Positions 21,334-30,337 are shown, numbered from the stretch's first letter. The stretch: 64,000 nt of DNA from Phycisphaerae bacterium (GCA_022072445.1 JAJVHV010000030.1:5971-69970), one strand, 5' to 3'. Numbers and translations: made by a program. Notes: a model not told the origin generated them from the letters alone.

Positions 21334-21366
21334 GGCGCCGCGCCGCCGCGCCAGATCGCGCGATGC

Positions 21367-22365
21367 TCACCCGGCAGGTTCGCCGCACGAGCAGACCGGG
21401 GGCTCAGTCTGAATGAGCAGGCCAGTCGGCAGCGGCTCACCGCCAACGTCGGTTTCGAACAGCTCTGCCGCGAGGATGCGGTAGTTGCGCCCGTAGCGCT
21501 CGCACTCCGCGTCCGCCCACTCCAGCCCGAAGCCCAGCAATTGCCCGCTCGCCAGGTCGTCGGGCCAGCCCAGGCCGGCCGCCGAAAGCGGCAGGTCGAG
21601 CACGAGGAATATCTGCTCGCCATCAGACGGAACATCGACGACCAGATAGCGCTCGTCGCCAAAGGACTCGAGCGGCATCCCGGCCCGCAACCGGACGGCG
21701 GCCAGGCGGAAGACCTCGCATTCCCGCTGTCGGCCGGCGGACGCGGAAAACTCGGCGAGCACGAAGACGCGCAGTACGACCGGATTGCCGGGCCGATAGA
21801 CGTGCGGAATCGCGGCGCGCCAGCCAACCGGATACTCCAGCGTCGGGCTTGAAACGAGCAGCGCGTCGGCCGCGACCTGCCCTTCCTCCGCCGACGCACC
21901 CCGCGCGCCGCCGCGATTGTTCGGATCGCGCGGCGTTCCGTCGGCGCCGAGCGTGACGAAGTCGTCGATGAATACGTCAAAAAGCGGCGCAGCGCTCAGC
22001 CCTGGCGGACCTGGCTCGCCCGGCGGCCCCTGCTCACCGGGTGCCCCCGGTTCGCCCGGTGCTCCCGGCGGCCCAGCGGCACCGTCCTCGCCTTGCGGTC
22101 CCGATGGGCCGGCTGGCCCATCGGCGCCTGGAATGGCGCGCCCCGCCGCCTCCTCCAGTGCCTGATTCAGCTCGTCGTCGAACGCCTGGCGCTGGGCGTC
22201 GAGTGCCGCCAGTGCGATCAGCGCCGCGCCCGACGAGAACAGCAGATCGCGCCCATAATCCTGAAGAAAGAAAGCCGAACCGGGGCTGCATCCGACGCTG
22301 ACGCCGAACATCGCCGCCAGCGCGCAGAATCGGCGCCCGCGGCGGAATCGCCGCTTGTTTCGCAT
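21367..22365 (-). CDS. collagen-like triple-helix repeat lipoprotein with uncharacterised C-terminal domain
   Basis: ORF 21367..22461; probable start ATG 22365 ([26 protein letters not shown] lipobox). 14 uninterrupted G-X-Y triplets ([43 protein letters not shown], nt 22000-22128). Confidence 0.7.
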
Positions 22366-22503
22366 TCCATGCTCCGCAAGCCCGACAGGGTGACGGCAAA
22401 CCGGCGCCGATCGACGCCGGCGCCGCGAGATCTGAGCCCTCGCTGGAACTATAGGCGCCACCCAGGTGGGATCAAGCCGCGGCTGCCCTCGTGTGTTGAT
22501 TTT

Positions 22504-23457
22504 CTAGGACAGGTCAGTCGGCTTGCGGGCGGCGATCCAGAAATTGTCGCTGAGTGGATTCGCTTTCACCGAAATGACCTCGAATCCGACATTGACGATC
22601 AGGCGGCCAAGCGTCGCCGGTGAGAAGTATTGCACGTGCTCGGGCCAGCGATAACCCGACCAGCGTGCTCCGAGAACGCGGCGCAGCAGGCAGTCGTAAT
22701 TCGGCGTTTTGTGAACCGTCACGCCGCCCGGCCGCAGCAGCTCGAACAGCCGGCGCAACACCGGCGCGGGGCGCGGCTCGTGTTCCAGATAGCTGACGGT
22801 GACAGCCAGGTCGAACGAGCCGCGTTCAAGGTCGAAATCCGCCAGCCGGCCGCACAAGACGCGCTCCGCACCCATCCGCCGCGCGGCACGCGACGCCATC
22901 TTCGGCGACGGCTCGACGCCGATCGCGTCGTACCCCCAGCGCAGCGCCAGGGCCGGCAGGCGCCCGTCTCCGCAGCCGACGTCGATCATCCGCGCGCGGC
23001 GCGTGCCGCTTGGCACTTCGGTTCCGCTCGGCGCTGCGCGCGTGCCGCTGGGCGCTGCGCGCGTGGCGTGAAGCTCACTCGGCGTCGCGCCCAGGCTCCC
23101 GTCGACGGCGATGGTCGGCGGGGCGCTGCGGCGAATCCAGCGCAGGGCGCGCGCTTCGCGGCTGGGCTTCATGAAGAGCACGGACATCGTCCAAGCCCGC
23201 GCGAAGGGGTTGCGCATCCAGCGCTCCATCCGCTCGCGCTTGAACGACTCGCTCCACTCGAACTCGGTGTCGATCGCCTCGTCGGTCGGATACTCGGGCA
23301 TGTACGGCAGCCCGCAGCCGGCGCAGCCGACCAGCCGCCAGCGGTCGTGCCGCAGCAGTTCGGCGCCGCCGACAGCGTCGCACACAGGGCAGGGGCGCGA
23401 TTCGGTCCGTTCGGCGGAGTGCGCGTCGCCGGCCCTGATCGTGCGAGGCTCAGTCAT
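22504..23457 (-). CDS. class I SAM-dependent methyltransferase with N-terminal Zn ribbon
   Basis: ORF 22504..23475. ATG 23457 forms an ATGA overlap with the upstream stop. CPVCDA..CAGCG ribbon; motif I IDVGCGDGRL; LRPGGVTV. Confidence 0.8.
   Translation of the reverse strand: MTEPRTIRAGDAHSAERTESRPCPVCDAVGGAELLRHDRWRLVGCAGCGLPYMPEYPTDEAIDTEFEWSESFKRERMERWMRNPFARAWTMSVLFMKPSREARALRWIRRSAPPTIAVDGSLGATPSELHATRAAPSGTRAAPSGTEVPSGTRRARMIDVGCGDGRLPALALRWGYDAIGVEPSPKMASRAARRMGAERVLCGRLADFDLERGSFDLAVTVSYLEHEPRPAPVLRRLFELLRPGGVTVHKTPNYDCLLRRVLGARWSGYRWPEHVQYFSPATLGRLIVNVGFEVISVKANPLSDNFWIAARKPTDLS
23003..23065. repeat. 21-nt tandem repeat inside the methyltransferase gene
   Basis: ccgct(c/g)ggcgctgcgcgcgtg x2 plus a degenerate third unit. 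It encodes TRAAPSG-TRAAPSG-TEVPSG in a linker. Confidence 0.6.
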
Positions 23458-24101
23458 TCCGGCACCTCGCGCCACGTTCGCACCTCTGCGGCGACTGCTC
23501 CGAAGCCGACCGGGAACGCGTTCTCAAGCTCGCCTATAGTCCTCGCGACTCGCTCGCAATGCTCAACCGCGCATTTCGTTGCAAGCTCGAGCGAAGGACG
23601 ATCCGTACCGTAGACCGAGTTCTTGAGTTCACGCATCCGCGATCGCGCCGTCGTGCGTGCCCGTAAGTCCCGTATCCAGGCGACTTCCGTCGCGTGTGGA
23701 TCAATGCCGCAACGGTACCATGCTTCGATGGCAGGCATCGCCACACCGATGGCTACGCTGAACGGCGCGCGTCCGACGACATGCTTCAGCATGTCGCGCG
23801 TCTGGTGAACTTCCCGGCGTACTACGCAAAGTCGGCATCGGTCCGTCGCGCAATTTGCCGCAGGACCGCCTTCGTGTGGCGGCGACCCATTCGAATCAAC
23901 GACTACCACCAAACCTCGCACGTCGCTTTGATAGTACAGGGCGCGCATGACTCCTGGCAGCATCTGATACACGTTGGGCCAGCCACGCGCCCGAAAAGGT
24001 GGGTGCTCTGGCGGTTTTGTCGTCAATCCGAGGATCGCGTTTGCCAGAACGCGCAGTGCGGCTTCGTCGGCCGGGGATTCACTCAGAATTGCCACCTTCA
24101 T
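23454..24101 (-). CDS. small DUF4276/Toprim-like protein (partner of the upstream ATPase)
   Basis: ORF 23454..24140. ATG 24101 forms an ATGA overlap with the ATPase stop. MKVAILSESPADEAAL (acidic strand-helix), LVVVVDSNG, AMPAIEAWY. Confidence 0.6.
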   Translation of the reverse strand: MKVAILSESPADEAALRVLANAILGLTTKPPEHPPFRARGWPNVYQMLPGVMRALYYQSDVRGLVVVVDSNGSPPHEGGPAANCATDRCRLCVVRREVHQTRDMLKHVVGRAPFSVAIGVAMPAIEAWYRCGIDPHATEVAWIRDLRARTTARSRMRELKNSVYGTDRPSLELATKCAVEHCERVARTIGELENAFPVGFGAVAAEVRTWREVPE

Positions 24102-25090
24102 GGCCTGCTCGGAACGCCGCCGAGCACACCCGTGTACCACGCGTCGCCGAGCGGCGCCTGCTGCAATATCTCGTCAATGTCCGGCCGGTCAATGAGCCGG
24201 GTGAACCTCGCTTCAAGGTCATGCTTGTCGGCGATGACCACGCACTCGGGATACTCGCGGAAGAGATCAAGAAAGTAAGGCGAGTGCGTCGTGGCAAGCA
24301 CCTGGACAGCCGGCCGGGCCGCCCCAACGGATTCCGGATGGCACAGCCGGAAGATCGCGTCGCGGACGTCCCGAAGCAGACGCGGGTGCAATCCGCGATC
24401 GGGCTCTTCAAGGCAGACCAGCGGAGGCGGCTCGGGCAGGTGGCTGAGCAGCAGCAGCGCCAGCGCGATCAACGTGCCGTGAGACAGGTCCTCGGCGGCG
24501 ATCTGATGCTTGCCGCTCACAGTCCGAAGTGCAACCGATTTCGCGTTCTGCTTGGGAACCAACTGCACATAATCGTACTCCGGAAGCCAGCGCCGGACTT
24601 CGGCGACGAACGACTCGAAGTTTTCGGGATGCAGGTCCTTGAGATTGTCGATCACCGAAGCGAGCTTTTCGCCACGCTCACCAAGTTCCGGCGATGGCTC
24701 TACGCCAGACGGCTGCTTGAGGACTTGGGCCTCAAATGTGAATGCGCGGATTCGAGAGAAGAACTCCTGGACGTTCGGACTCAGTTGACCGCGACTGGCC
24801 TGAGGATCGACCCATGCTCCCTTCTCCGAACCGGTTTCCCAAACACGCCTGACGACGTTGGAGTCAGAGAGTCGGCACGAAATCTCAATGCCGCGCTTCG
24901 GCGCGCCAACGGAAGCGGATCCGCTCAGTGCCCTACTGACTTTGCCCGCGAGCGCGAGGATGCCATCGACGGCAGTCGACTTCCCGGCACCGTTGGGACC
25001 CACCAGTAACGTGAACGGCCCTAACGGCAGCGTCGTGTCGCGCAGAACGCGAAAGTTCTTGAAATCAATGGATTCGATTGAGAGTGCCAT
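24098..25090 (-). CDS. ABC/SMC-like AAA ATPase (AAA_21-type)
   Basis: IESIDFKNFRVL N-terminus. Walker A GPNGAGKS, signature-like LSHGT, Walker B LVCLEEPDRGLHP, H-loop ATTHSP. Confidence 0.85.
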   Translation of the reverse strand: MALSIESIDFKNFRVLRDTTLPLGPFTLLVGPNGAGKSTAVDGILALAGKVSRALSGSASVGAPKRGIEISCRLSDSNVVRRVWETGSEKGAWVDPQASRGQLSPNVQEFFSRIRAFTFEAQVLKQPSGVEPSPELGERGEKLASVIDNLKDLHPENFESFVAEVRRWLPEYDYVQLVPKQNAKSVALRTVSGKHQIAAEDLSHGTLIALALLLLSHLPEPPPLVCLEEPDRGLHPRLLRDVRDAIFRLCHPESVGAARPAVQVLATTHSPYFLDLFREYPECVVIADKHDLEARFTRLIDRPDIDEILQQAPLGDAWYTGVLGGVPSRP

Positions 25091-25181
25091 GTCCCTCGTA
25101 TCCTAGCACGCGCGCACTAGCCCACGCAAACACACGCCGCGCGCCCGCGCCACCTGGGCGGCCACTCCGACGATTCGGCTC

Positions 25182-26693
25182 TCAGGCGCTCCGCAGCCGC
25201 AGCACCGCGCACACAACGCGCGCCCCGAACCACACAACGATCAGCCCTCCCGCCATCGCACGCGCCGTGACGAGCAAATCGCCAAACGTGAACCGGCCAA
25301 CGATCGCCGTCTGATCGGCCCAGTACCAAAACGCCGCTCCCAGCCCCTCGCCCAGCGCGACGACCAGCACGAAGCCCGCCACCGCCGGCGGGATCGCCGC
25401 GGCGGACGCAAGCACACACAGGGCCGTGTAGCGGCGGATGTCGCGGCGCGGCCGCAGACCGACGAGCAGCGCCGCAACGCTGATGAGCAGCATCCCGGCG
25501 GCACGGATGCCGGCGAAGATCGCGAGCGGGACACATGCCACCAGCAGCCAGTTCCCGCCATTTCCGCCGCCGCGGGCTTCAAGTGCGTCAAGAGTCAAGG
25601 CGAGCGCGGCCAGCGGCGCAGGTATCGCCGCCAGCAGCGATAGCACGAGCGAAACGCCGAGTCGCACGTCGGCGGCGCGGACCACCAGTGCGGTGTCGGC
25701 GAGCATCTGCGGGCGCCGCATGACCCGCCACATGACGCGCAGCCAGTGCCAACGCGAGACCGGTGACCCGCCGATCGCCTCCCGCTCGGCCAGCGCGGCA
25801 AGCGTCGCGGCGATCGGCTGGCCACACTCGGGACACTGACCAGCGAGCGGCAAACCGACCAGCAGGTAGTCGCACCGGACACATCGCGGCGGGACGGCGA
25901 GCGGCTCGCCGCTGTCGGACGGCGCGGCGATGAGCCCGTCGGAAGCGAGTGCGAGAGGCGCTGTCGCGCTCGCCGCCGTTGGCCGTGGCGCGCCTCCGCG
26001 CCCGAGGCGCAGGACGATCGCGAACCACCACGCCATGACCAGCGCCGCCAGCGAAACCAGCAGCATTTCGAACTCATCGCCGTTCAGCTTGGGTCGCGCT
26101 GTGATCCAGGCGAACCCGACCACAAGCCATAGGACCGCGCCAAACGGCAGAATGGCGTTGCTCCACAGCCCAAGCTTGACGCACCGCGCCACCAGGCCGC
26201 CGGTTGTCTCGCGCACCGCGACCCACGGCACGGCGCACAGGCCGAGCACGACCGCAACCGCCGCGACGGCCAGAACCAGGCCCGGAAACGCAAGCACGTC
26301 GCCGAGCGGCGCGGAGCGCAGGTAGAGTGTCGAGACGACGCCCGCCACGATGCGCCGCGGCGGATCGAGCGGCCCGTCCAGCGCGGGCGGAAGCTCGGGC
26401 GGGCCCAGTGTGCCGTCGGTCCGAACGATCTTGATCTGCCACGGGCCGGGGTTCGGAGTGTAGAAAAGACTGTCTGCCAGTGCAACGACCAGAGTCGCCA
26501 GAGCTGACATCAGGACGTGCATGGCCAGCGTGCGGCGCCACGACACGCCGGCCAGCCTGGCGCCTGCACGAAGCGGTGTGAAGACGACTCTCCCCGCCAA
26601 AACGATGGGGTTGCTTCGACCGGCCGCGGCCTGCGCGGCGCCTTTCATCGGCGGAGCTGCGCGCAGCGGTTGGAAGACTGCGCCGTTGGTCAT
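25182..26693 (-). CDS. polytopic membrane protein with embedded Zn ribbon
   Basis: About ten hydrophobic helices. Central CVRCDYLLVGLPLAGQCPECG ribbon. The start forms an ATGA overlap with the upstream gene. Confidence 0.6.
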   Translation of the reverse strand: MTNGAVFQPLRAAPPMKGAAQAAAGRSNPIVLAGRVVFTPLRAGARLAGVSWRRTLAMHVLMSALATLVVALADSLFYTPNPGPWQIKIVRTDGTLGPPELPPALDGPLDPPRRIVAGVVSTLYLRSAPLGDVLAFPGLVLAVAAVAVVLGLCAVPWVAVRETTGGLVARCVKLGLWSNAILPFGAVLWLVVGFAWITARPKLNGDEFEMLLVSLAALVMAWWFAIVLRLGRGGAPRPTAASATAPLALASDGLIAAPSDSGEPLAVPPRCVRCDYLLVGLPLAGQCPECGQPIAATLAALAEREAIGGSPVSRWHWLRVMWRVMRRPQMLADTALVVRAADVRLGVSLVLSLLAAIPAPLAALALTLDALEARGGGNGGNWLLVACVPLAIFAGIRAAGMLLISVAALLVGLRPRRDIRRYTALCVLASAAAIPPAVAGFVLVVALGEGLGAAFWYWADQTAIVGRFTFGDLLVTARAMAGGLIVVWFGARVVCAVLRLRSA

Positions 26694-28204
26694 GGCTGAT
26701 CGTCCATCGCGCTTTCGTCCGGCTCGCTCACCGGAACGAGGCGCGGCTCGTTCGCGGGTGCGGCACGCGGACCTGCGTAATCGATGTCATCCAGCTCGCG
26801 CGACGGGTCGCGCTTGCCGCCGTCGTCGCGCGCGTTGTAGCCACACGAATAGAGTTGAATGCTCCCGTCGTCGCTGTGCACGTAGCGGAACGTCTGACCC
26901 GGAGTGATTGGATCGTCGGGAAGCGCCGCGAGGAATTCCGGGACCAGCTCGCGCAGCTCCGCCGGATAGCGATGATGCACGCGATGAAATCGCTGCAGGG
27001 CGATCAGGACGCTTATCGACCTCCATTGCGCCAGGTTGCCGAGCGGTATCTGGTACGTCCGCGTGCTGAAGGGATGCCCCCGGTCGGGTGACTGCCCCAG
27101 CAGCGGGCCGGCAGCGGCCGAGTACATCTCGACGGTTCTCAGTCCATCCAATCGAGCCACGGCCTGTCGATACGGCAGCTCCACCACCGATTCGGCCCGC
27201 TGGAAGAGCCGGTCGATGCGTGCTTCGATCGTGCGGCGGTCGTCGTAAATCGGCGAGAGCAGATTCCAAAGCCGGCTGCGCGCGGCCGGGGCCACGGACC
27301 CAGTGAAGGAAAGGGTGTACGTGTCGGGCTGGTCCGCCAGGACGAGCCAGCCGTTGCCATCGGCGCCGCGCGTGTAGCACATATTGACCATCAGCAGCAC
27401 GAGCCGGCGCTCGCCACGCAGCGCGCTCTGCCAGCTCGCTACGGCGTCTGGGGGCAATGCGACGAAGGCGCTCATGTCGGCCAGCAGGCCGTCGTCAGGC
27501 GAATTTTCCAGGAGCCACAAGGACGTTTCCGAGAGGGCCAGCGATTCGCATGCCACCCCGACCAGCATGTTGACCATGTAGACATGTTCGATGCCGCGTG
27601 AAATCGCAAGCGCGGCCCGCAAGCACTCCCAGGCCCTTCGCCCGTCGCGGCGCTCCTCGCGGAAGTAACGCGACGCACTACAGAGCAGCTTCACGGCGGC
27701 CCTGACCTCGGAGGAATGGATTGACGTACCGCTGTTGTCAGAGAAAAAAACGTCGATCACGAACGGCCGATCAGCCAAAGCGCACATGTCGGCGAGATGC
27801 GACTGCATCGCCGGATCGTCCAACGTGCGGATCATGCGGCGTAGCCCTGGGCGCTCTGCCGGCGACCAGGGACCTCGGCGCACGTCGTCATAGTCTAATT
27901 GATGAATGGGGCCGGATAGGGGGTCCCATGCAAACCCCGGCGGCGCTGGCTCATCGAACACCGGCGGAGCCGGCAGACGATCAAACAGCCGTCGCCACTC
28001 CGGCGTAGCGTCGTCGGGCCTGCGCGTCAGGTGCGCGGCACCGAGCGATGCGTAGTCGCCCAAACGAACGACACTGCGGCGGTTCCAGCGCTCGACGGCG
28101 AACTGGGAGAACGGTACCAGCAGCGCGATCAGGGCGATGGCAGCGATCAGCAGGACGGCTCTTCGCCCACGCCGCGCCGCCCGCCGGCCCGTCGCGCTGC
28201 TCAT
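26690..28204 (-). CDS. membrane-anchored protein of unknown function
   Basis: N-terminal RRAARRGRRAVLLIAAIALIALLV anchor. C-terminal LYSCGYNARDDGG pseudopilin-like tail motif. Confidence 0.6.
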   Translation of the reverse strand: MSSATGRRAARRGRRAVLLIAAIALIALLVPFSQFAVERWNRRSVVRLGDYASLGAAHLTRRPDDATPEWRRLFDRLPAPPVFDEPAPPGFAWDPLSGPIHQLDYDDVRRGPWSPAERPGLRRMIRTLDDPAMQSHLADMCALADRPFVIDVFFSDNSGTSIHSSEVRAAVKLLCSASRYFREERRDGRRAWECLRAALAISRGIEHVYMVNMLVGVACESLALSETSLWLLENSPDDGLLADMSAFVALPPDAVASWQSALRGERRLVLLMVNMCYTRGADGNGWLVLADQPDTYTLSFTGSVAPAARSRLWNLLSPIYDDRRTIEARIDRLFQRAESVVELPYRQAVARLDGLRTVEMYSAAAGPLLGQSPDRGHPFSTRTYQIPLGNLAQWRSISVLIALQRFHRVHHRYPAELRELVPEFLAALPDDPITPGQTFRYVHSDDGSIQLYSCGYNARDDGGKRDPSRELDDIDYAGPRAAPANEPRLVPVSEPDESAMDDQP

Positions 28205-28213
28205 GTCACCGGC

Positions 28214-30337
28214 TCAGCGCCCCGCGCCGGTCAGCTCATCGGCCAGCGCGCCGGCGTCGTAGATCTTGCGCAGCGCCTCGATGATCGCCCGCGAATCGAC
28301 CGCCACGGCGCGGCCCTGCCGCTCGTCGAACTGAATGTCCCACACAAGCGACTGCAGATTGCCGTCGAAGATCAGCCCGACCACTTCGCCCGCCGTGTTG
28401 ATCACCGGGCTGCCCGAATTGCCCCCGATGATGTCCGCCGTGCAGACGAAGTTGTAGGGCGTATCCAGCTTGAGCTTGCTCTTGCCATCGACCCAGCGCT
28501 GCGGCAGCTCAAATCCCTCCTCGCCGTGCCGCTCCTGCCAGCGCTGGTACAGCCCGGCGAAGTTCGTGAACGGCGGCACATCCCGGCTATCCTCCTGGTA
28601 GCCCTTGACCGGGCCGAACGCCAGCCGCAGCGTTCCGGTCGCGTCGGGATACAGGTCCTCGCCGAAGCGCGCGAACATGGCGGCCGCGACCTTAGCGTAA
28701 TTGGCGCGCTCCACGCCTTCGACCGTGTCCTCGAAGCGCGTCCGCAGGGCGCGGTACTCGGGGTCGAGCGCCGCGGCCAGCTTGATGAGCGGATCGTCGC
28801 TGGCAGCAATGGCCGCCGCTCCGCCCGCGGCGAGTTTCTTGCGGGTCTCGACGTCCTTGAGCGTGCAGCCGCGGACGAGCTGCACGGCCCGCTCGCGCGG
28901 GCTCATGCCCGCCAGCGTCGCCGCGACCGTCGGGTCGTCGCCGCCCAGCGTCTCGGCCATCAGCATCAGGCCGCCGGCCAGACGGTCGATCTCGAGCTCG
29001 TCGTAGATCGGCGCCGGCGAATAGAGCCGCAGATAGACCGACTCGAGCTCCGACTCGCGATACTCGCGCAGGCGGTCGCGGCTGGGCTTGGGCAGCTCGG
29101 CGGCGAGCTGCACGAGCGTGTGCGCGAGGCGAAACAGGTCGCTGCGCAGCGCGCCGCGGATGACCGCGTAGCGCGCGTGGAACTCGCGATATTGCTGAAG
29201 CGCCGTGGCGATGTTGTCCCACGCGTCGCCCCACTGCGCCTGCTGCTGCGGATTGTTCATCACCGCCGCCCGCAGATCCTTCTCGAACGACGCCTTGCGC
29301 TGCATCAGCACCGGGTCGAGCAGCCCGCCGAATCCGCCCGTCATCGCCTTGCGGCCGTTCTGCGTGCCGAACAGGTCGTTCTCGCCGATCCGCGCGTTCT
29401 CGGCGCCGCGCTGCACGAACGTCTTGAGCTGCACCTCGCGCCGCCAGGCGTTCCGCAGATTGAACGGGAAATCCACGTCGCGCAGAAAGCGCAGATGATC
29501 GAGCGTGTTCAGCCGCCGCGTCCGTCCGGGATGGCCCGCGACCAGCACCAGGTCGTTCTCCGCCGCGCCGGCCCTGCTCCACTTCAGATAGTGCTCGCAC
29601 TTCAGCGGCTCGTCGTTCTCGTAGACCCGGAAAAAGCACATGTCCAGGTCGTAACGCGGATACTCGAAGTTGTCGTTGTCGCCGCCGAAGAACGCGATCG
29701 ACTTCTCCGGCGCCATCACCAGCCGCACGTCGGTGTAGCGGCGATAGCTGTAGAGGTGATAGCGCGCCCCCTGGTAGAGCGTGACGATTTCGCAATCCAG
29801 CTTGGTGCGATCCTTGGCCTCCTGTTCGATCTCGCTCATCCGCTTGCGCCGCGCGCTGAACGCGTCGGCCGCGGACATTTCGGGCTTCGCCGCCGCGTTC
29901 ACCTTGTCGGTCACGTCCTCGATCGTCCACAGCAGTCGGACTTCCATGTCCGCGCACTTGAGCTCTTCGGCCGGCGTGCGGGCGTAGAAACCGTCGCGCA
30001 TCAGGTTCCGCTCCGGCGTGCTCAGCTTCTCGAGCTGACCGCTGCCGACGTGGTGATTGGTGAGAATCAGCCCGCGCGGCGACACCAGCGAGCCCGACGC
30101 GCCGATCTTCACCGACGCCTTCTGCACGTGTTCGAGCCAGGCCGCCGTCGGCTCGAATCCATACTTCTCCTTCAGCAGCTTCGTCGGCGGGCGGTTGGGC
30201 AACCACATGCCCTCGTCAGCCAGGGCGCCCACGCCGGATGCGAGCAGCAGGGCGATAGGGACGAGCCGCGCGCCGCGGAGCGAACGCCGGCGTTGACGCA
30301 CGACAGGGGTGATTGTGAGTGTGGATGGGTGATTCAT
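28214..30337 (-). CDS. S46 family dipeptidyl-peptidase (DPP7/DPP11-like serine protease)
   Basis: Signal peptide, then DEGMWLP. LILTNHHVG (His) and GGNSGSPVIN (Ser) chymotrypsin-fold motifs are split by a large helical insert, as in S46. Confidence 0.9.
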   Translation of the reverse strand: MNHPSTLTITPVVRQRRRSLRGARLVPIALLLASGVGALADEGMWLPNRPPTKLLKEKYGFEPTAAWLEHVQKASVKIGASGSLVSPRGLILTNHHVGSGQLEKLSTPERNLMRDGFYARTPAEELKCADMEVRLLWTIEDVTDKVNAAAKPEMSAADAFSARRKRMSEIEQEAKDRTKLDCEIVTLYQGARYHLYSYRRYTDVRLVMAPEKSIAFFGGDNDNFEYPRYDLDMCFFRVYENDEPLKCEHYLKWSRAGAAENDLVLVAGHPGRTRRLNTLDHLRFLRDVDFPFNLRNAWRREVQLKTFVQRGAENARIGENDLFGTQNGRKAMTGGFGGLLDPVLMQRKASFEKDLRAAVMNNPQQQAQWGDAWDNIATALQQYREFHARYAVIRGALRSDLFRLAHTLVQLAAELPKPSRDRLREYRESELESVYLRLYSPAPIYDELEIDRLAGGLMLMAETLGGDDPTVAATLAGMSPRERAVQLVRGCTLKDVETRKKLAAGGAAAIAASDDPLIKLAAALDPEYRALRTRFEDTVEGVERANYAKVAAAMFARFGEDLYPDATGTLRLAFGPVKGYQEDSRDVPPFTNFAGLYQRWQERHGEEGFELPQRWVDGKSKLKLDTPYNFVCTADIIGGNSGSPVINTAGEVVGLIFDGNLQSLVWDIQFDERQGRAVAVDSRAIIEALRKIYDAGALADELTGAGR

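What the first reader, a model, noticed from the sequence alone, without database searches (positions are those of the whole stretch)
22504..25090. ATGA-coupled three-gene module: ABC-type ATPase + DUF4276/Toprim-like protein + Zn-ribbon methyltransferase
Three minus-strand genes are chained by two ATGA stop/start overlaps, at 24098-24101 and 23454-23457. Gene 1 is an SMC/ABC-like ATPase with Walker A GPNGAGKS, LSHGT, Walker B LVCLEEPD and TTHSP. Gene 2 is a ~215-aa protein with acidic motifs ILSESPADE, VVVVDSNG and AIEAWY, reminiscent of DUF4276/Toprim partners. An ABC ATPase with a small Toprim-like partner is the logic of OLD-family nucleases and of the split PARIS (AriA/AriB) and AbiL-type defence systems. 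A tightly coupled class I SAM methyltransferase as third gene is not part of any described system that I know. It does not look like a DNA N6/C5 methyltransferase. The module sits among unrelated envelope genes.
Basis: partly seen in the sequence, partly recalled or inferred. Interest (0 to 1): 0.66.

Follow-up and report, generated by a model that had tools for sequence, protein, structure and literature searches.

The report
ATPase–nuclease pair inserted beside unrelated methyltransferase
The three overlapping genes are real, but only the first two (an ABC-type ATPase and a small Toprim-like partner) form a conserved, horizontally moving two-gene cassette of a known candidate anti-phage type, and the methyltransferase is a resident host gene next to which the cassette happened to land.

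Summary
All three minus-strand ORFs, their motifs and both ATGA overlaps are present as described. The proposed trio is not a module.

**The pair is conserved; the trio is not.**
- In 80 related loci from many phyla, the ATPase sits immediately upstream of the 215-aa protein in 78. The other 2 are cut by a contig end.
- 58 of those 78 junctions have the same 4-nt overlap.
- A methyltransferase follows in 0 of 80.

**The pair is an insertion.**
- A sister contig whose methyltransferase is 87% identical carries the same operon: S46 peptidase, two membrane proteins, methyltransferase, collagen-like protein. It lacks the pair.
- The pair has lower GC (0.61 against about 0.70) and lower GC3 than its neighbours.

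**What the pair is.**
- The ATPase is a clear ABC/AAA_21 ATPase. Its best PADLOC match is HEC-01A (3.6e-42), and its fold is closest to PtuA, Rad50 and OLD.
- The partner matches no curated model itself. Its family gives consistent sub-threshold hits to HEC-01B, mad4, RloB and DUF4276.

**Verdict.** This is a divergent member of the ABC-ATPase plus Toprim-partner class (HEC-01-like). Its function is untested. The novel three-gene claim is refuted.

The parts
24098..25090 (-). g1: 330-aa ABC-type (AAA_21/AAA_15) ATPase, HEC-01A-like. Walker A at aa 31-38, signature LSHGT at 202-206, Walker B at 224-231, H-loop TTHSP at 267-271.
   Evidence: - Pfam: AAA_21 1.8e-24, AAA_15 8.2e-18.
- PADLOC: HEC-01A 3.6e-42, mad3 3.3e-31, AriA 8.8e-25.
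- PDB by sequence: OLD 6p74 at 2.3e-12.
- AF2 model pLDDT 91.2. Foldseek: PtuA, Rad50, OLD and SMC heads at E about 1e-12.
- Motif positions.
23454..24101 (-). g2: 215-aa Toprim-like partner protein. Conserved acidic residues E8, D12, D69 and E126 follow strands beta1, beta2 and beta3. The family has no curated model.
   Evidence: - The window protein has no hit in Pfam, PADLOC or NCBIfam.
- Family hits among 150 representatives: HEC-01B 52, 49 and 10 members on three models; mad4 31; PDC-M38B 17; AbiLii 3. Pfam RloB 20 and DUF4276 10.
- The hits are collinear from the N-terminus.
- AF2 pLDDT 91.7.
- Conserved columns.
24098..24101 (-). ATGA stop/start overlap between g1 and g2. This is conserved translational coupling.
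   Evidence: Sequence. 58 of 78 related loci have the same 4-nt overlap.
25091..25181 (-). 91-nt leader upstream of g1. It is absent from the sister contig. It contains an extended -10-like box TGCTAGGAT (25108..25100) 9 nt before the ATG. A promoter role is inferred, not shown.
   Evidence: - Alignment to L081 stops right after the upstream gene's TGA.
- Similar TAnnnT boxes lie upstream of g1 in many loci.
- The box was not called by the strict sigma-70 scan.
23417..25180 (-). Segment of about 1.76 kb present in the window and replaced by about 76 nt in sister contig L081. This is the inserted cassette: leader, g1, g2 and a remodelled methyltransferase 5' end.
   Evidence: - blastn: window 30246..25650 matches L081 2970..7532, and window 23416..21365 matches L081 8075..10136.
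- Junction alignments.
- GC 0.615/0.614 and GC3 0.72/0.64 for g1/g2, against GC 0.66-0.71 and GC3 0.77-0.90 for neighbours.
- No flanking repeats.
23454..23457 (-). ATGA overlap between g2 stop and methyltransferase start. It is specific to this genome and is probably a by-product of the insertion.
   Evidence: - Sequence.
- The g2 family normally ends at W210 plus 0-3 aa. The window copy has an extra tail, REVPE.
- The first roughly 12 codons of the methyltransferase differ from the sister orthologue.
22504..23457 (-). g3: resident class I SAM methyltransferase (Methyltransf_23) with an N-terminal CxxC...CxxC motif. It is a neighbour, NOT part of the cassette.
   Evidence: - Pfam Methyltransf_23 8.6e-24.
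- Orthologues at 46-87% identity across Planctomycetota.
- Six orthologue contexts lack an ATPase or g2.
- 87% identical orthologue in the same operon without the pair.

Best explanation
**What is there.** The region holds two unrelated things that are physically joined.

1. A self-contained two-gene cassette (window about 23454-25181).
   - It encodes a compact ABC-type ATPase (g1) that is translationally coupled to a small Toprim-like protein (g2).
   - It probably carries its own promoter.
   - The cassette is horizontally mobile. In this Phycisphaerae lineage it was inserted into a pre-existing operon, between a membrane-protein gene and a methyltransferase gene.
2. The methyltransferase (g3).
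   - It is a resident gene of that operon and works without the pair in relatives.
   - Its ATGA overlap with g2 arose at the insertion junction.

**Most likely mechanism of the pair.** This is inferred by analogy with OLD, Gabija, PARIS, AbiL and MADS mad3/mad4.
- The ATPase dimer acts as an ATP-dependent sensor or regulator that binds the partner.
- On sensing an invading phage or mobile element, or a perturbation it causes, the ATPase licenses or releases the partner.
- The partner is a metal-dependent nuclease using E8, D12, D69 and E126. It cuts nucleic acid (DNA or tRNA) and stops the infection or the cell.

**Shown.**
- Gene pairing and coupling.
- Independence from the methyltransferase.
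- The indel polymorphism and foreign base composition.
- The ABC ATPase identity of g1.

**Inferred.**
- Toprim nuclease activity.
- Complex formation.
- A defence role.
- The promoter.

**Sub-confidences.**
- The pair is an autonomous unit unrelated to the methyltransferase: about 0.92.
- g2 is Toprim-like: about 0.7.
- The role is anti-phage or anti-MGE defence: about 0.5.
For: **The pair is conserved.**
- g1 lies immediately upstream of g2 in 78 of 80 genome loci. The other 2 are truncated at a contig end.
- The loci span Acidobacteriota, Planctomycetota, Verrucomicrobiota, Binatia, Gemmatimonadota and others.
- 58 of 78 have a 4-nt overlap.

**Flanking genes are not conserved.**
- Flanks are shared only within clades and are mostly housekeeping.
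- No methyltransferase is adjacent in any of the 80 loci.

**The pair is an insertion.**
- Sister contig L081 has the same operon without the pair.
- g1 and g2 have lower GC and GC3 than their neighbours.
- In Binatia the same cassette sits either right after a tmRNA gene or at another site.

**g1 is an ABC ATPase.**
- Family hits.
- Predicted fold is nearest PtuA, Rad50, OLD and SMC heads.

**g2 is Toprim-like.**
- Convergent weak hits go only to partner families of such ATPases: HEC-01B, mad4, PDC-M38B, PDC-M25B, AbiLii, RloB and DUF4276. Noise families each hit 2 members or fewer.
- PH0156 is listed elsewhere as the best structural match of a DUF4435/AriB Toprim protein (PMC11381338).
- Nearly invariant acidic residues sit at the C-terminal ends of strands.

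**Literature.**
- HEC-01 is defined as an ABC ATPase plus a TOPRIM protein with a conserved metal site (bioRxiv 10.1101/2024.01.29.577857).
- mad3 and mad4 are needed for MADS defence (bioRxiv 10.1101/2023.03.30.534895).
- PARIS AriA/AriB mechanism: PMC11464382.
Against: - The window's own g2 hits no curated model even at E <= 10.
- Every family-level hit is below curated thresholds. The best are 6e-6 to 1e-4.
- Foldseek against the PDB gives nothing below E 0.001 for g2. A profile search of PDB sequences gives nothing relevant.
- The second Asp of the canonical Toprim DxD is not conserved. It is D or N in the family and N71 in the window.
- The one HEC-01 representative tested experimentally protected against none of the phages tried.
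- Most contexts are housekeeping genes, not defence islands. Only one of about 20 inspected neighbours is a defence gene (HsdR in L009).
- The family is absent from the plasmid collection.
- Indel polarity (insertion here or deletion in the sister) rests on base composition and patchy distribution, not on an outgroup.
Confidence: 0.6

Rival explanations
1. The three genes form one new defence system in which the class I methyltransferase is a functional third component, for example in self-marking or effector modification.
For: - There is a real ATGA overlap between g2 and g3.
- g3 gives a weak PADLOC hit to mad2 (7.8e-13), and g1 hits mad3.
- All three genes are co-oriented with no terminator between them.
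Against: - 0 of 80 pair loci have the methyltransferase. 0 of 6 methyltransferase-orthologue loci have the pair.
- The sister contig has the methyltransferase in the same operon without the pair.
- The methyltransferase has host-like GC and GC3 and the pair does not.
- The mad2 hit covers only the generic SAM-binding core, profile positions 293-401 of 492.
- The mad3 score is 109 bits against a cutoff of 420.
- There is no DNA-methyltransferase family hit.
Confidence: 0.03
2. The pair is primarily a selfish addiction or toxin-antitoxin-like module. A toxic nuclease is held in check by the ATPase. The module persists because its loss is harmful, not because it defends against phages.
For: - Solitary cassettes sit among housekeeping genes without defence-island context.
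- Distribution is patchy and cross-phylum, and there is an indel polymorphism.
- The Pfam AAA_21 description links the family to AbiEii/type IV TA.
- The tested HEC-01 showed no phage protection.
Against: - There is no direct evidence of toxicity.
- Related pairs (mad3/mad4, PARIS, AbiL) act in defence.
- The two roles are not mutually exclusive, because abortive-infection systems are often TA-like.
Confidence: 0.2
3. The pair is a housekeeping DNA-repair or maintenance complex, analogous to the RecF (ABC ATPase) and RecR (Toprim) pair, with no role in conflict with mobile elements.
For: - The ABC ATPase fold is close to Rad50 and SMC heads. There is a weak RecF TIGR00611 hit at 9.7e-07.
- Neighbours are housekeeping genes.
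Against: - The pair is present in one of two closely related genomes and absent from the other.
- Its base composition is foreign.
- Its genomic position varies even within a clade, and it occurs at a tmRNA site.
- The best family matches are all defence-candidate models.
Confidence: 0.07
4. The cassette is an inactive remnant in this genome. It would have been transferred in and would be decaying, with no current function.
For: - N71 replaces the second Asp of the DxD-like motif.
- g2 has a non-canonical C-terminal tail that runs into the next gene.
Against: - Both ORFs are intact and full length, with every nearly invariant family residue present: E8, S9, D12, D69, E126, W128, K160, Y164 and the GFG motif.
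- All ATPase motifs are intact.
- N at this position is common across the family.
Confidence: 0.05

Closest known systems
HEC-01 (Hma-embedded candidate 01; PADLOC; Payne et al., bioRxiv 10.1101/2024.01.29.577857)
   Same: - Two genes in the same order: an ABC ATPase followed by a roughly 200-aa TOPRIM-like protein.
- g1's best match in PADLOC is HEC-01A (3.6e-42).
- The g2 family's most frequent weak matches are HEC-01B models. They are collinear and of similar length, 204-213 aa.
   Different: - g2 itself is not detected by any HEC-01B model.
- g1 is shorter, 330 aa against models of about 400 aa.
- The pair is not embedded in an Hma/MADS system. It is solitary among housekeeping genes.
- HEC-01 itself has no demonstrated defence phenotype.
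MADS mad3/mad4 (methylation-associated defence system, P. aeruginosa; bioRxiv 10.1101/2023.03.30.534895)
   Same: - An ATPase (mad3) plus a small partner (mad4).
- g1 hits mad3 at 3e-31.
- 31 of 150 g2-family members hit mad4 weakly.
- mad3 and mad4 are required for defence in that system.
   Different: - MADS is an eight-gene system whose mandatory MAD6-8 are absent here.
- g1 scores 109 bits against the NCBIfam MAD3 cutoff of 420.
- The adjacent methyltransferase is not a mad2 orthologue. The hit covers only the SAM core.
PARIS (AriA/AriB) and OLD-family nucleases (P2 Old, Gabija GajA)
   Same: - The logic is an ABC ATPase plus a Toprim nuclease.
- g1 hits AriA models (8.8e-25), Old and GajA, and Ts OLD 6p74 by sequence.
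   Different: - g2 has no DUF4435 or Toprim_Old hit.
- g1 lacks the AriA insertion/coiled-coil size (330 aa against about 450-500 aa).
- The pair is split rather than fused, unlike OLD and GajA.
- No trigger or target is known.
AbiL (AbiLi/AbiLii) and RloA/RloB-type pairs; DUF4276 proteins
   Same: - An AAA_21-type ATPase plus an RloB-like small partner.
- g1 hits AbiLi at 3.7e-13.
- g2-family members hit RloB (20 of 150, best 1.2e-4), DUF4276 (10 of 150, best 3e-3) and AbiLii (3 of 150).
   Different: All hits are below the Pfam gathering thresholds. The window protein itself hits none. The sequence family is distinct, with no curated model.

Membership tests
HEC-01 (PADLOC candidate system) | Component A matches HEC-01A (ABC ATPase) | tested here: met
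   PDLC04182 at 3.6e-42. Several other HEC-01A models score between 1e-39 and 1e-19.
HEC-01 (PADLOC candidate system) | Component B matches HEC-01B (TOPRIM-like protein) and is adjacent to A | tested here: inconclusive
   - Adjacency and gene order are met.
- The window g2 has no hit at E <= 10.
- Family members hit HEC-01B models in 52, 49 and 10 of 150, with best E-values of 7e-6 to 4e-5, collinear.
HEC-01 (PADLOC candidate system) | Anti-phage phenotype | not testable with these tools
   The published representative showed no protection against the phages tested.
Toprim domain (Aravind 1998 definition: conserved Glu after strand 1, DxD after strand 3, Rossmann-like fold) | Conserved catalytic Glu and DxD in a Toprim fold | tested here: inconclusive
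   - E8 after beta1 and D69 after beta2 are invariant or nearly invariant, and E126 follows beta3.
- The second Asp is D or N in the family and N71 here.
- Foldseek gives no significant hit.
DUF4276 (PF14103) | Match to the Pfam model at or above the gathering score | tested here: not met
   - The window g2 has no hit at E <= 10.
- Only 10 of 150 family representatives give weak hits, the best at 0.0031.
RloB (PF13707) / AbiLii | Match to the model at or above the gathering score (31.5 bits) | tested here: not met
   - The family consensus scores 17.2 bits, E 0.0059, collinear over residues 55-191 against profile 60-177 of 195.
- 20 of 150 members hit RloB, the best at 1.2e-4. 3 of 150 hit AbiLii.
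- The evidence is compatible with remote homology, not with membership.
PARIS (AriA + AriB) | AriB = DUF4435 Toprim protein | tested here: not met
   - No DUF4435 hit in g2 or its family. No AriB hit in PADLOC.
- AriA models hit g1 at 8.8e-25, but more weakly than HEC-01A.
MADS (mad1-8) | MAD3 equivalog score, and presence of mandatory MAD6-8 | tested here: not met
   - g1 scores 109 bits against a cutoff of 420.
- The neighbours are an S46 peptidase, two membrane proteins, a class I methyltransferase and a collagen-like protein. There are no further mad-like genes.
- MAD6-8 are mandatory.
DNA methyltransferase of an R-M-like system (for g3) | N6/N4/C5 DNA methyltransferase family match | tested here: not met
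   - Only generic class I families hit: Methyltransf_23, 11, 25, 12 and 31.
- NCBIfam gives weak UbiG, BioC and similar small-molecule methyltransferase hits.
ABC ATPase (SMC/Rad50/OLD-type) for g1 | Walker A, signature motif, Walker B, H-loop; ABC head fold | tested here: met
   - Motifs located.
- Pfam AAA_21, AAA_15, AAA_23 and SMC_N.
- AF2 pLDDT 91.2.
- Foldseek: PtuA, Rad50, OLD and SMC heads at E about 1e-12, probability 1.00.

The most novel reading that the evidence does not exclude
The g1-g2 family may be a distinct class of minimal, promoter-bearing two-gene element that spreads across soil and aquatic phyla and inserts precisely between genes of housekeeping operons.

- The family has at least 697 clusters at 50% identity and no curated model.
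- No recognisable integrase or transposase accompanies it.
- The most novel reading is that the ATPase and Toprim nuclease promote the cassette's own insertion or retention, in a homing or addiction-like way, and are not merely a passive defence gene pair.

The data do not exclude this. The supporting observations are precise indels, different sites within one clade, placement at a tmRNA 3' end, absence of flanking repeats and absence of mobility genes in the contexts examined. The data do not positively support it either.
Probability: 0.07. Interest if true: 0.7.

Novelty: new member of a known kind. Interest (0 to 1): 0.25.

Why it matters
**Annotation.** This is a useful caution. A 4-nt ATGA overlap and co-orientation do not make a module. 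An inserted cassette has become physically coupled to an unrelated host gene here.

**Biology.**
- The pair adds a sizeable, divergent branch to the ABC-ATPase plus Toprim-partner class (OLD, PARIS, AbiL, HEC-01, mad3/4).
- The branch is found mostly in uncultured Acidobacteriota, Planctomycetota, Verrucomicrobiota and Binatia.
- Current Pfam, NCBIfam and PADLOC models do not recognise its partner protein, so automated defence finders would miss it.
- The HEC-01 type still lacks any demonstrated phenotype. The clean presence/absence polymorphism found here offers a natural comparison, but it does not open a long-standing question by itself.

Tried and rejected
- **Single-sequence scans of g2.** Pfam, PADLOC and NCBIfam gave nothing. 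The signal appeared only when many family members were scanned. NCBIfam stayed empty.
- **Foldseek of the g2 model against the PDB.** No hit below E 0.001; the top hits are noise. The afdb50 library was unavailable.
- **Profile of the g2 family against PDB sequences.** Only spurious ARF GTPase hits.
- **tblastn of g1 and g2 against plasmids.** Essentially nothing. No annotated relatives could be harvested for a profile-profile test against DUF4276 or RloB.
- **Repeats at the indel borders.** A search for direct or inverted repeats (target-site duplications, terminal repeats) found only short chance matches.
- **A conserved third gene.** Flanking ORFs of the 80 loci were clustered. Nothing is shared beyond clade-level synteny.
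- **A MADS fragment.** This was considered because of the mad3, mad2 and mad4 hits. It was rejected on scores, domain coverage and gene content.
- **Strict sigma-70 scan.** It did not call a promoter upstream of g1. The -10-like box is only an eye-level observation.
Full report
**Observation**

The three minus-strand ORFs exist exactly as described.
- g1 is at 24098-25090 (330 aa).
- g2 is at 23454-24101 (215 aa).
- g3 is at 22504-23457 (317 aa).
- ATGA stop/start overlaps lie at 24101..24098 and 23457..23454.
- The window comes from a Phycisphaerae MAG. The three proteins are deposited there as two hypothetical proteins and a 'ubiquinone biosynthesis O-methyltransferase'.

**Identity of the three proteins**

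g1 is an ABC-type ATPase.
- Pfam gives AAA_21 at 1.8e-24 and AAA_15 at 8.2e-18.
- Its best PADLOC matches are HEC-01A models (3.6e-42), then mad3 (3.3e-31), AriA (8.8e-25), PDC-M07A, Old, AbiLi and GajA.
- NCBIfam MAD3 scores 109 bits against a cutoff of 420.
- The closest solved sequence is the Thermus OLD nuclease.
- An AF2 model (pLDDT 91.2) matches PtuA from retron/Septu complexes, Rad50 and SMC heads, and OLD, at E about 1e-12.

g3 is a generic class I SAM methyltransferase.
- Pfam gives Methyltransf_23 at 8.6e-24.
- It has a CxxC...CxxC N-terminus.
- It has no DNA-methyltransferase family hit.
- Its PADLOC mad2 hit covers only the SAM-binding core.

g2 alone hits nothing in Pfam, PADLOC or NCBIfam.

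**Is the trio a module? No**

From the g2 side:
- A genome-collection scan found 387 relatives, of which 80 loci were fetched.
- A g1 homologue lies immediately upstream in 78 of 80. The remaining two are cut by the contig end.
- 58 of 78 junctions are the same 4-nt overlap.
- A g3 homologue is adjacent in none. The only hit is 3 kb away on the other strand in one locus.
- Flanking genes are shared only within clades and are otherwise unrelated housekeeping genes. Examples are an oligopeptide ABC ATPase, a heptosyltransferase, MoaA, TonB, sulfatases, trigger factor/ClpP and NAPRTase.

From the g3 side:
- g3 has a clear orthologue family in Planctomycetota at 46-87% identity.
- Six inspected contexts contain no ATPase or g2.

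**The decisive comparison**

Contig L081 has a methyltransferase 87% identical to g3. It carries the same operon as the window: S46 peptidase, a 502-aa protein, a 490-aa membrane protein, the methyltransferase, then a collagen-like protein. In L081 the methyltransferase ATG lies 3 nt after the upstream stop, and there is no g1 or g2.

- At the DNA level, window 30246..25650 aligns to L081 2970..7532, and window 23416..21365 aligns to L081 8075..10136.
- Homology on the left ends right after the upstream gene's TGA.
- Homology on the right resumes about 40 nt into the methyltransferase.
- About 1.76 kb in the window therefore replaces about 76 nt in the sister.

Base composition points to acquisition.
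- g1 and g2 have GC 0.615 and 0.614, and GC3 0.72 and 0.64.
- Their neighbours, including g3, have GC 0.66-0.71 and GC3 0.77-0.90.

The g2/g3 junction looks accidental.
- The g2 family normally ends at W210. The window copy has five extra residues that run into the ATGA.
- The first dozen or so codons of the methyltransferase are remodelled relative to the sister.
- The g2/g3 overlap is best read as a by-product of insertion into an already tightly packed operon. That operon uses ATGA junctions elsewhere too.
- No terminal or target-site repeats were found.

**What g2 is**

Family and conserved residues:
- The family is compact and consists almost entirely of stand-alone proteins of about 210 aa.
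- It has 1566 hits in the 90%-identity database and 697 clusters at 50% identity with E <= 1e-3.
- Nearly invariant residues are E8, S9, D12, D69, E126, W128, R90, K160, Y164 and the GFG motif.

Structure:
- The AF2 model is confident (pLDDT 91.7).
- It is an alpha/beta fold in which E8, D69 and E126 follow strands beta1, beta2 and beta3.

Family scans of many members gave a consistent sub-threshold signal, aimed only at partner proteins of AAA_15/21 ATPases.
- PADLOC: HEC-01B models hit 52, 49 and 10 of 150 members (best 7e-6 to 4e-5). mad4 hit 31, PDC-M38B 17, and PDC-M25B, PDC-M31B and AbiLii a few each.
- Pfam: RloB hit 20 of 150 (best 1.2e-4) and DUF4276 hit 10 of 150.
- No unrelated family hit more than 2 members.
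- The matches are collinear from residue 1 and of matching length.

Structure searches:

Caveats:
- Foldseek and sequence-profile searches of the PDB are negative.
- The second Asp of the canonical DxD is D or N in the family.

I conclude that g2 is a remote Toprim-like relative of the RloB/DUF4276/HEC-01B/mad4 group, with a probability of about 0.7. It is not a member of any of those families by their own thresholds.

**What the pair is and how it probably works**

The nearest described entity is HEC-01, an ABC ATPase plus a TOPRIM protein found embedded in Hma systems.
- It has a conserved OLD-like metal site.
- It showed no protection against the phages tested (bioRxiv 10.1101/2024.01.29.577857).
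- mad3 and mad4 of MADS look like the same kind of pair and are required for defence there.
- By analogy with PARIS (AriA sequesters and releases the AriB Toprim nuclease, PMC11464382) and with OLD and Gabija, I propose an ATP-dependent sensor ATPase that controls a metal-dependent nuclease effector.

Evidence that the cassette is mobile:
- It occurs across phyla.
- It is an indel between sister genomes.
- In Binatia it sits either about 45 nt after a tmRNA gene or at another site, with the same proximal leader.
- In one tmRNA-site locus its neighbour is a type I restriction R subunit.
- Many copies, including the window's (TGCTAGGAT at 25108..25100), have a -10-like box just upstream of g1. 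This suggests an own promoter. It is inferred, and the strict scan did not call it.

Evidence against a defence role:
- Most contexts are housekeeping.
- There is no plasmid carriage.
- HEC-01 has no published phenotype.
- A toxin-antitoxin or addiction-like role is the main rival, and it need not exclude defence.

**Verdict**

The pair is a divergent, currently unmodelled member of a known class of candidate defence modules. The methyltransferase is an unrelated resident gene. Interest is modest.

Noticed in passing
L008 4543-4894 and L009 4601-4952 (tmRNA); g1 starts about 45 nt downstream; L009 6688-9732 (-): - In two Binatia genomes the same ATPase/partner cassette lies directly after a tmRNA gene, a classic island integration site.
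- In L009 it is followed by a type I restriction R subunit (HsdR).
- In related genomes (L010, L012, L018) the cassette has the same roughly 45-nt leader but sits at a different locus.
   Followed up: partly
window 25100-25108 (minus strand), and upstream of g1 in many of L001-L058: - An extended -10-like box (TGCTAGGAT in the window; TAnnnT variants elsewhere) lies 10-45 nt upstream of the ATPase start codon.
- This suggests the cassette carries its own promoter and a very short leader.
- The consensus promoter scan did not detect it.
   Followed up: partly
window 22999-23065: - A 21-nt tandem repeat (3.3 copies) lies inside the methyltransferase gene.
- It encodes a low-complexity TRAAPSG-like insert.
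- The insert is shared with the 87%-identical sister orthologue, whereas more distant orthologues are about 275 aa.
   Followed up: no
window 21367-22461 (-): - A collagen-like Gly-X-Y repeat protein lies immediately downstream of the methyltransferase.
- It is conserved in the sister contig (Pfam Collagen) and contains 9- and 18-nt tandem repeats.
   Followed up: no
window 25182-28204 (-); L081 5020-7997: - Two conserved proteins of about 500 aa have no Pfam domain. One has many predicted hydrophobic segments and a CxxC...CPEC motif.
- They form an operon with an S46 peptidase and the methyltransferase in both genomes. Their function is unknown.
   Followed up: no
L048 1044-2039, L075 6624-7313, L033 6641-7663, L046 1594-3156 and others: - In roughly 10-12 of 80 loci an unrelated co-directional housekeeping gene starts within -4 to +20 nt of the partner gene's stop. 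Examples are a heptosyltransferase, an oligopeptide ABC ATPase, TonB and MoaA.
- The cassette therefore repeatedly sits inside host operons without a terminator.
   Followed up: partly
L084 6883-7707, L086 2066-2887, L088 6208-6903: Orthologues of the methyltransferase in other Planctomycetota often have a second, different class I methyltransferase gene nearby.
   Followed up: no
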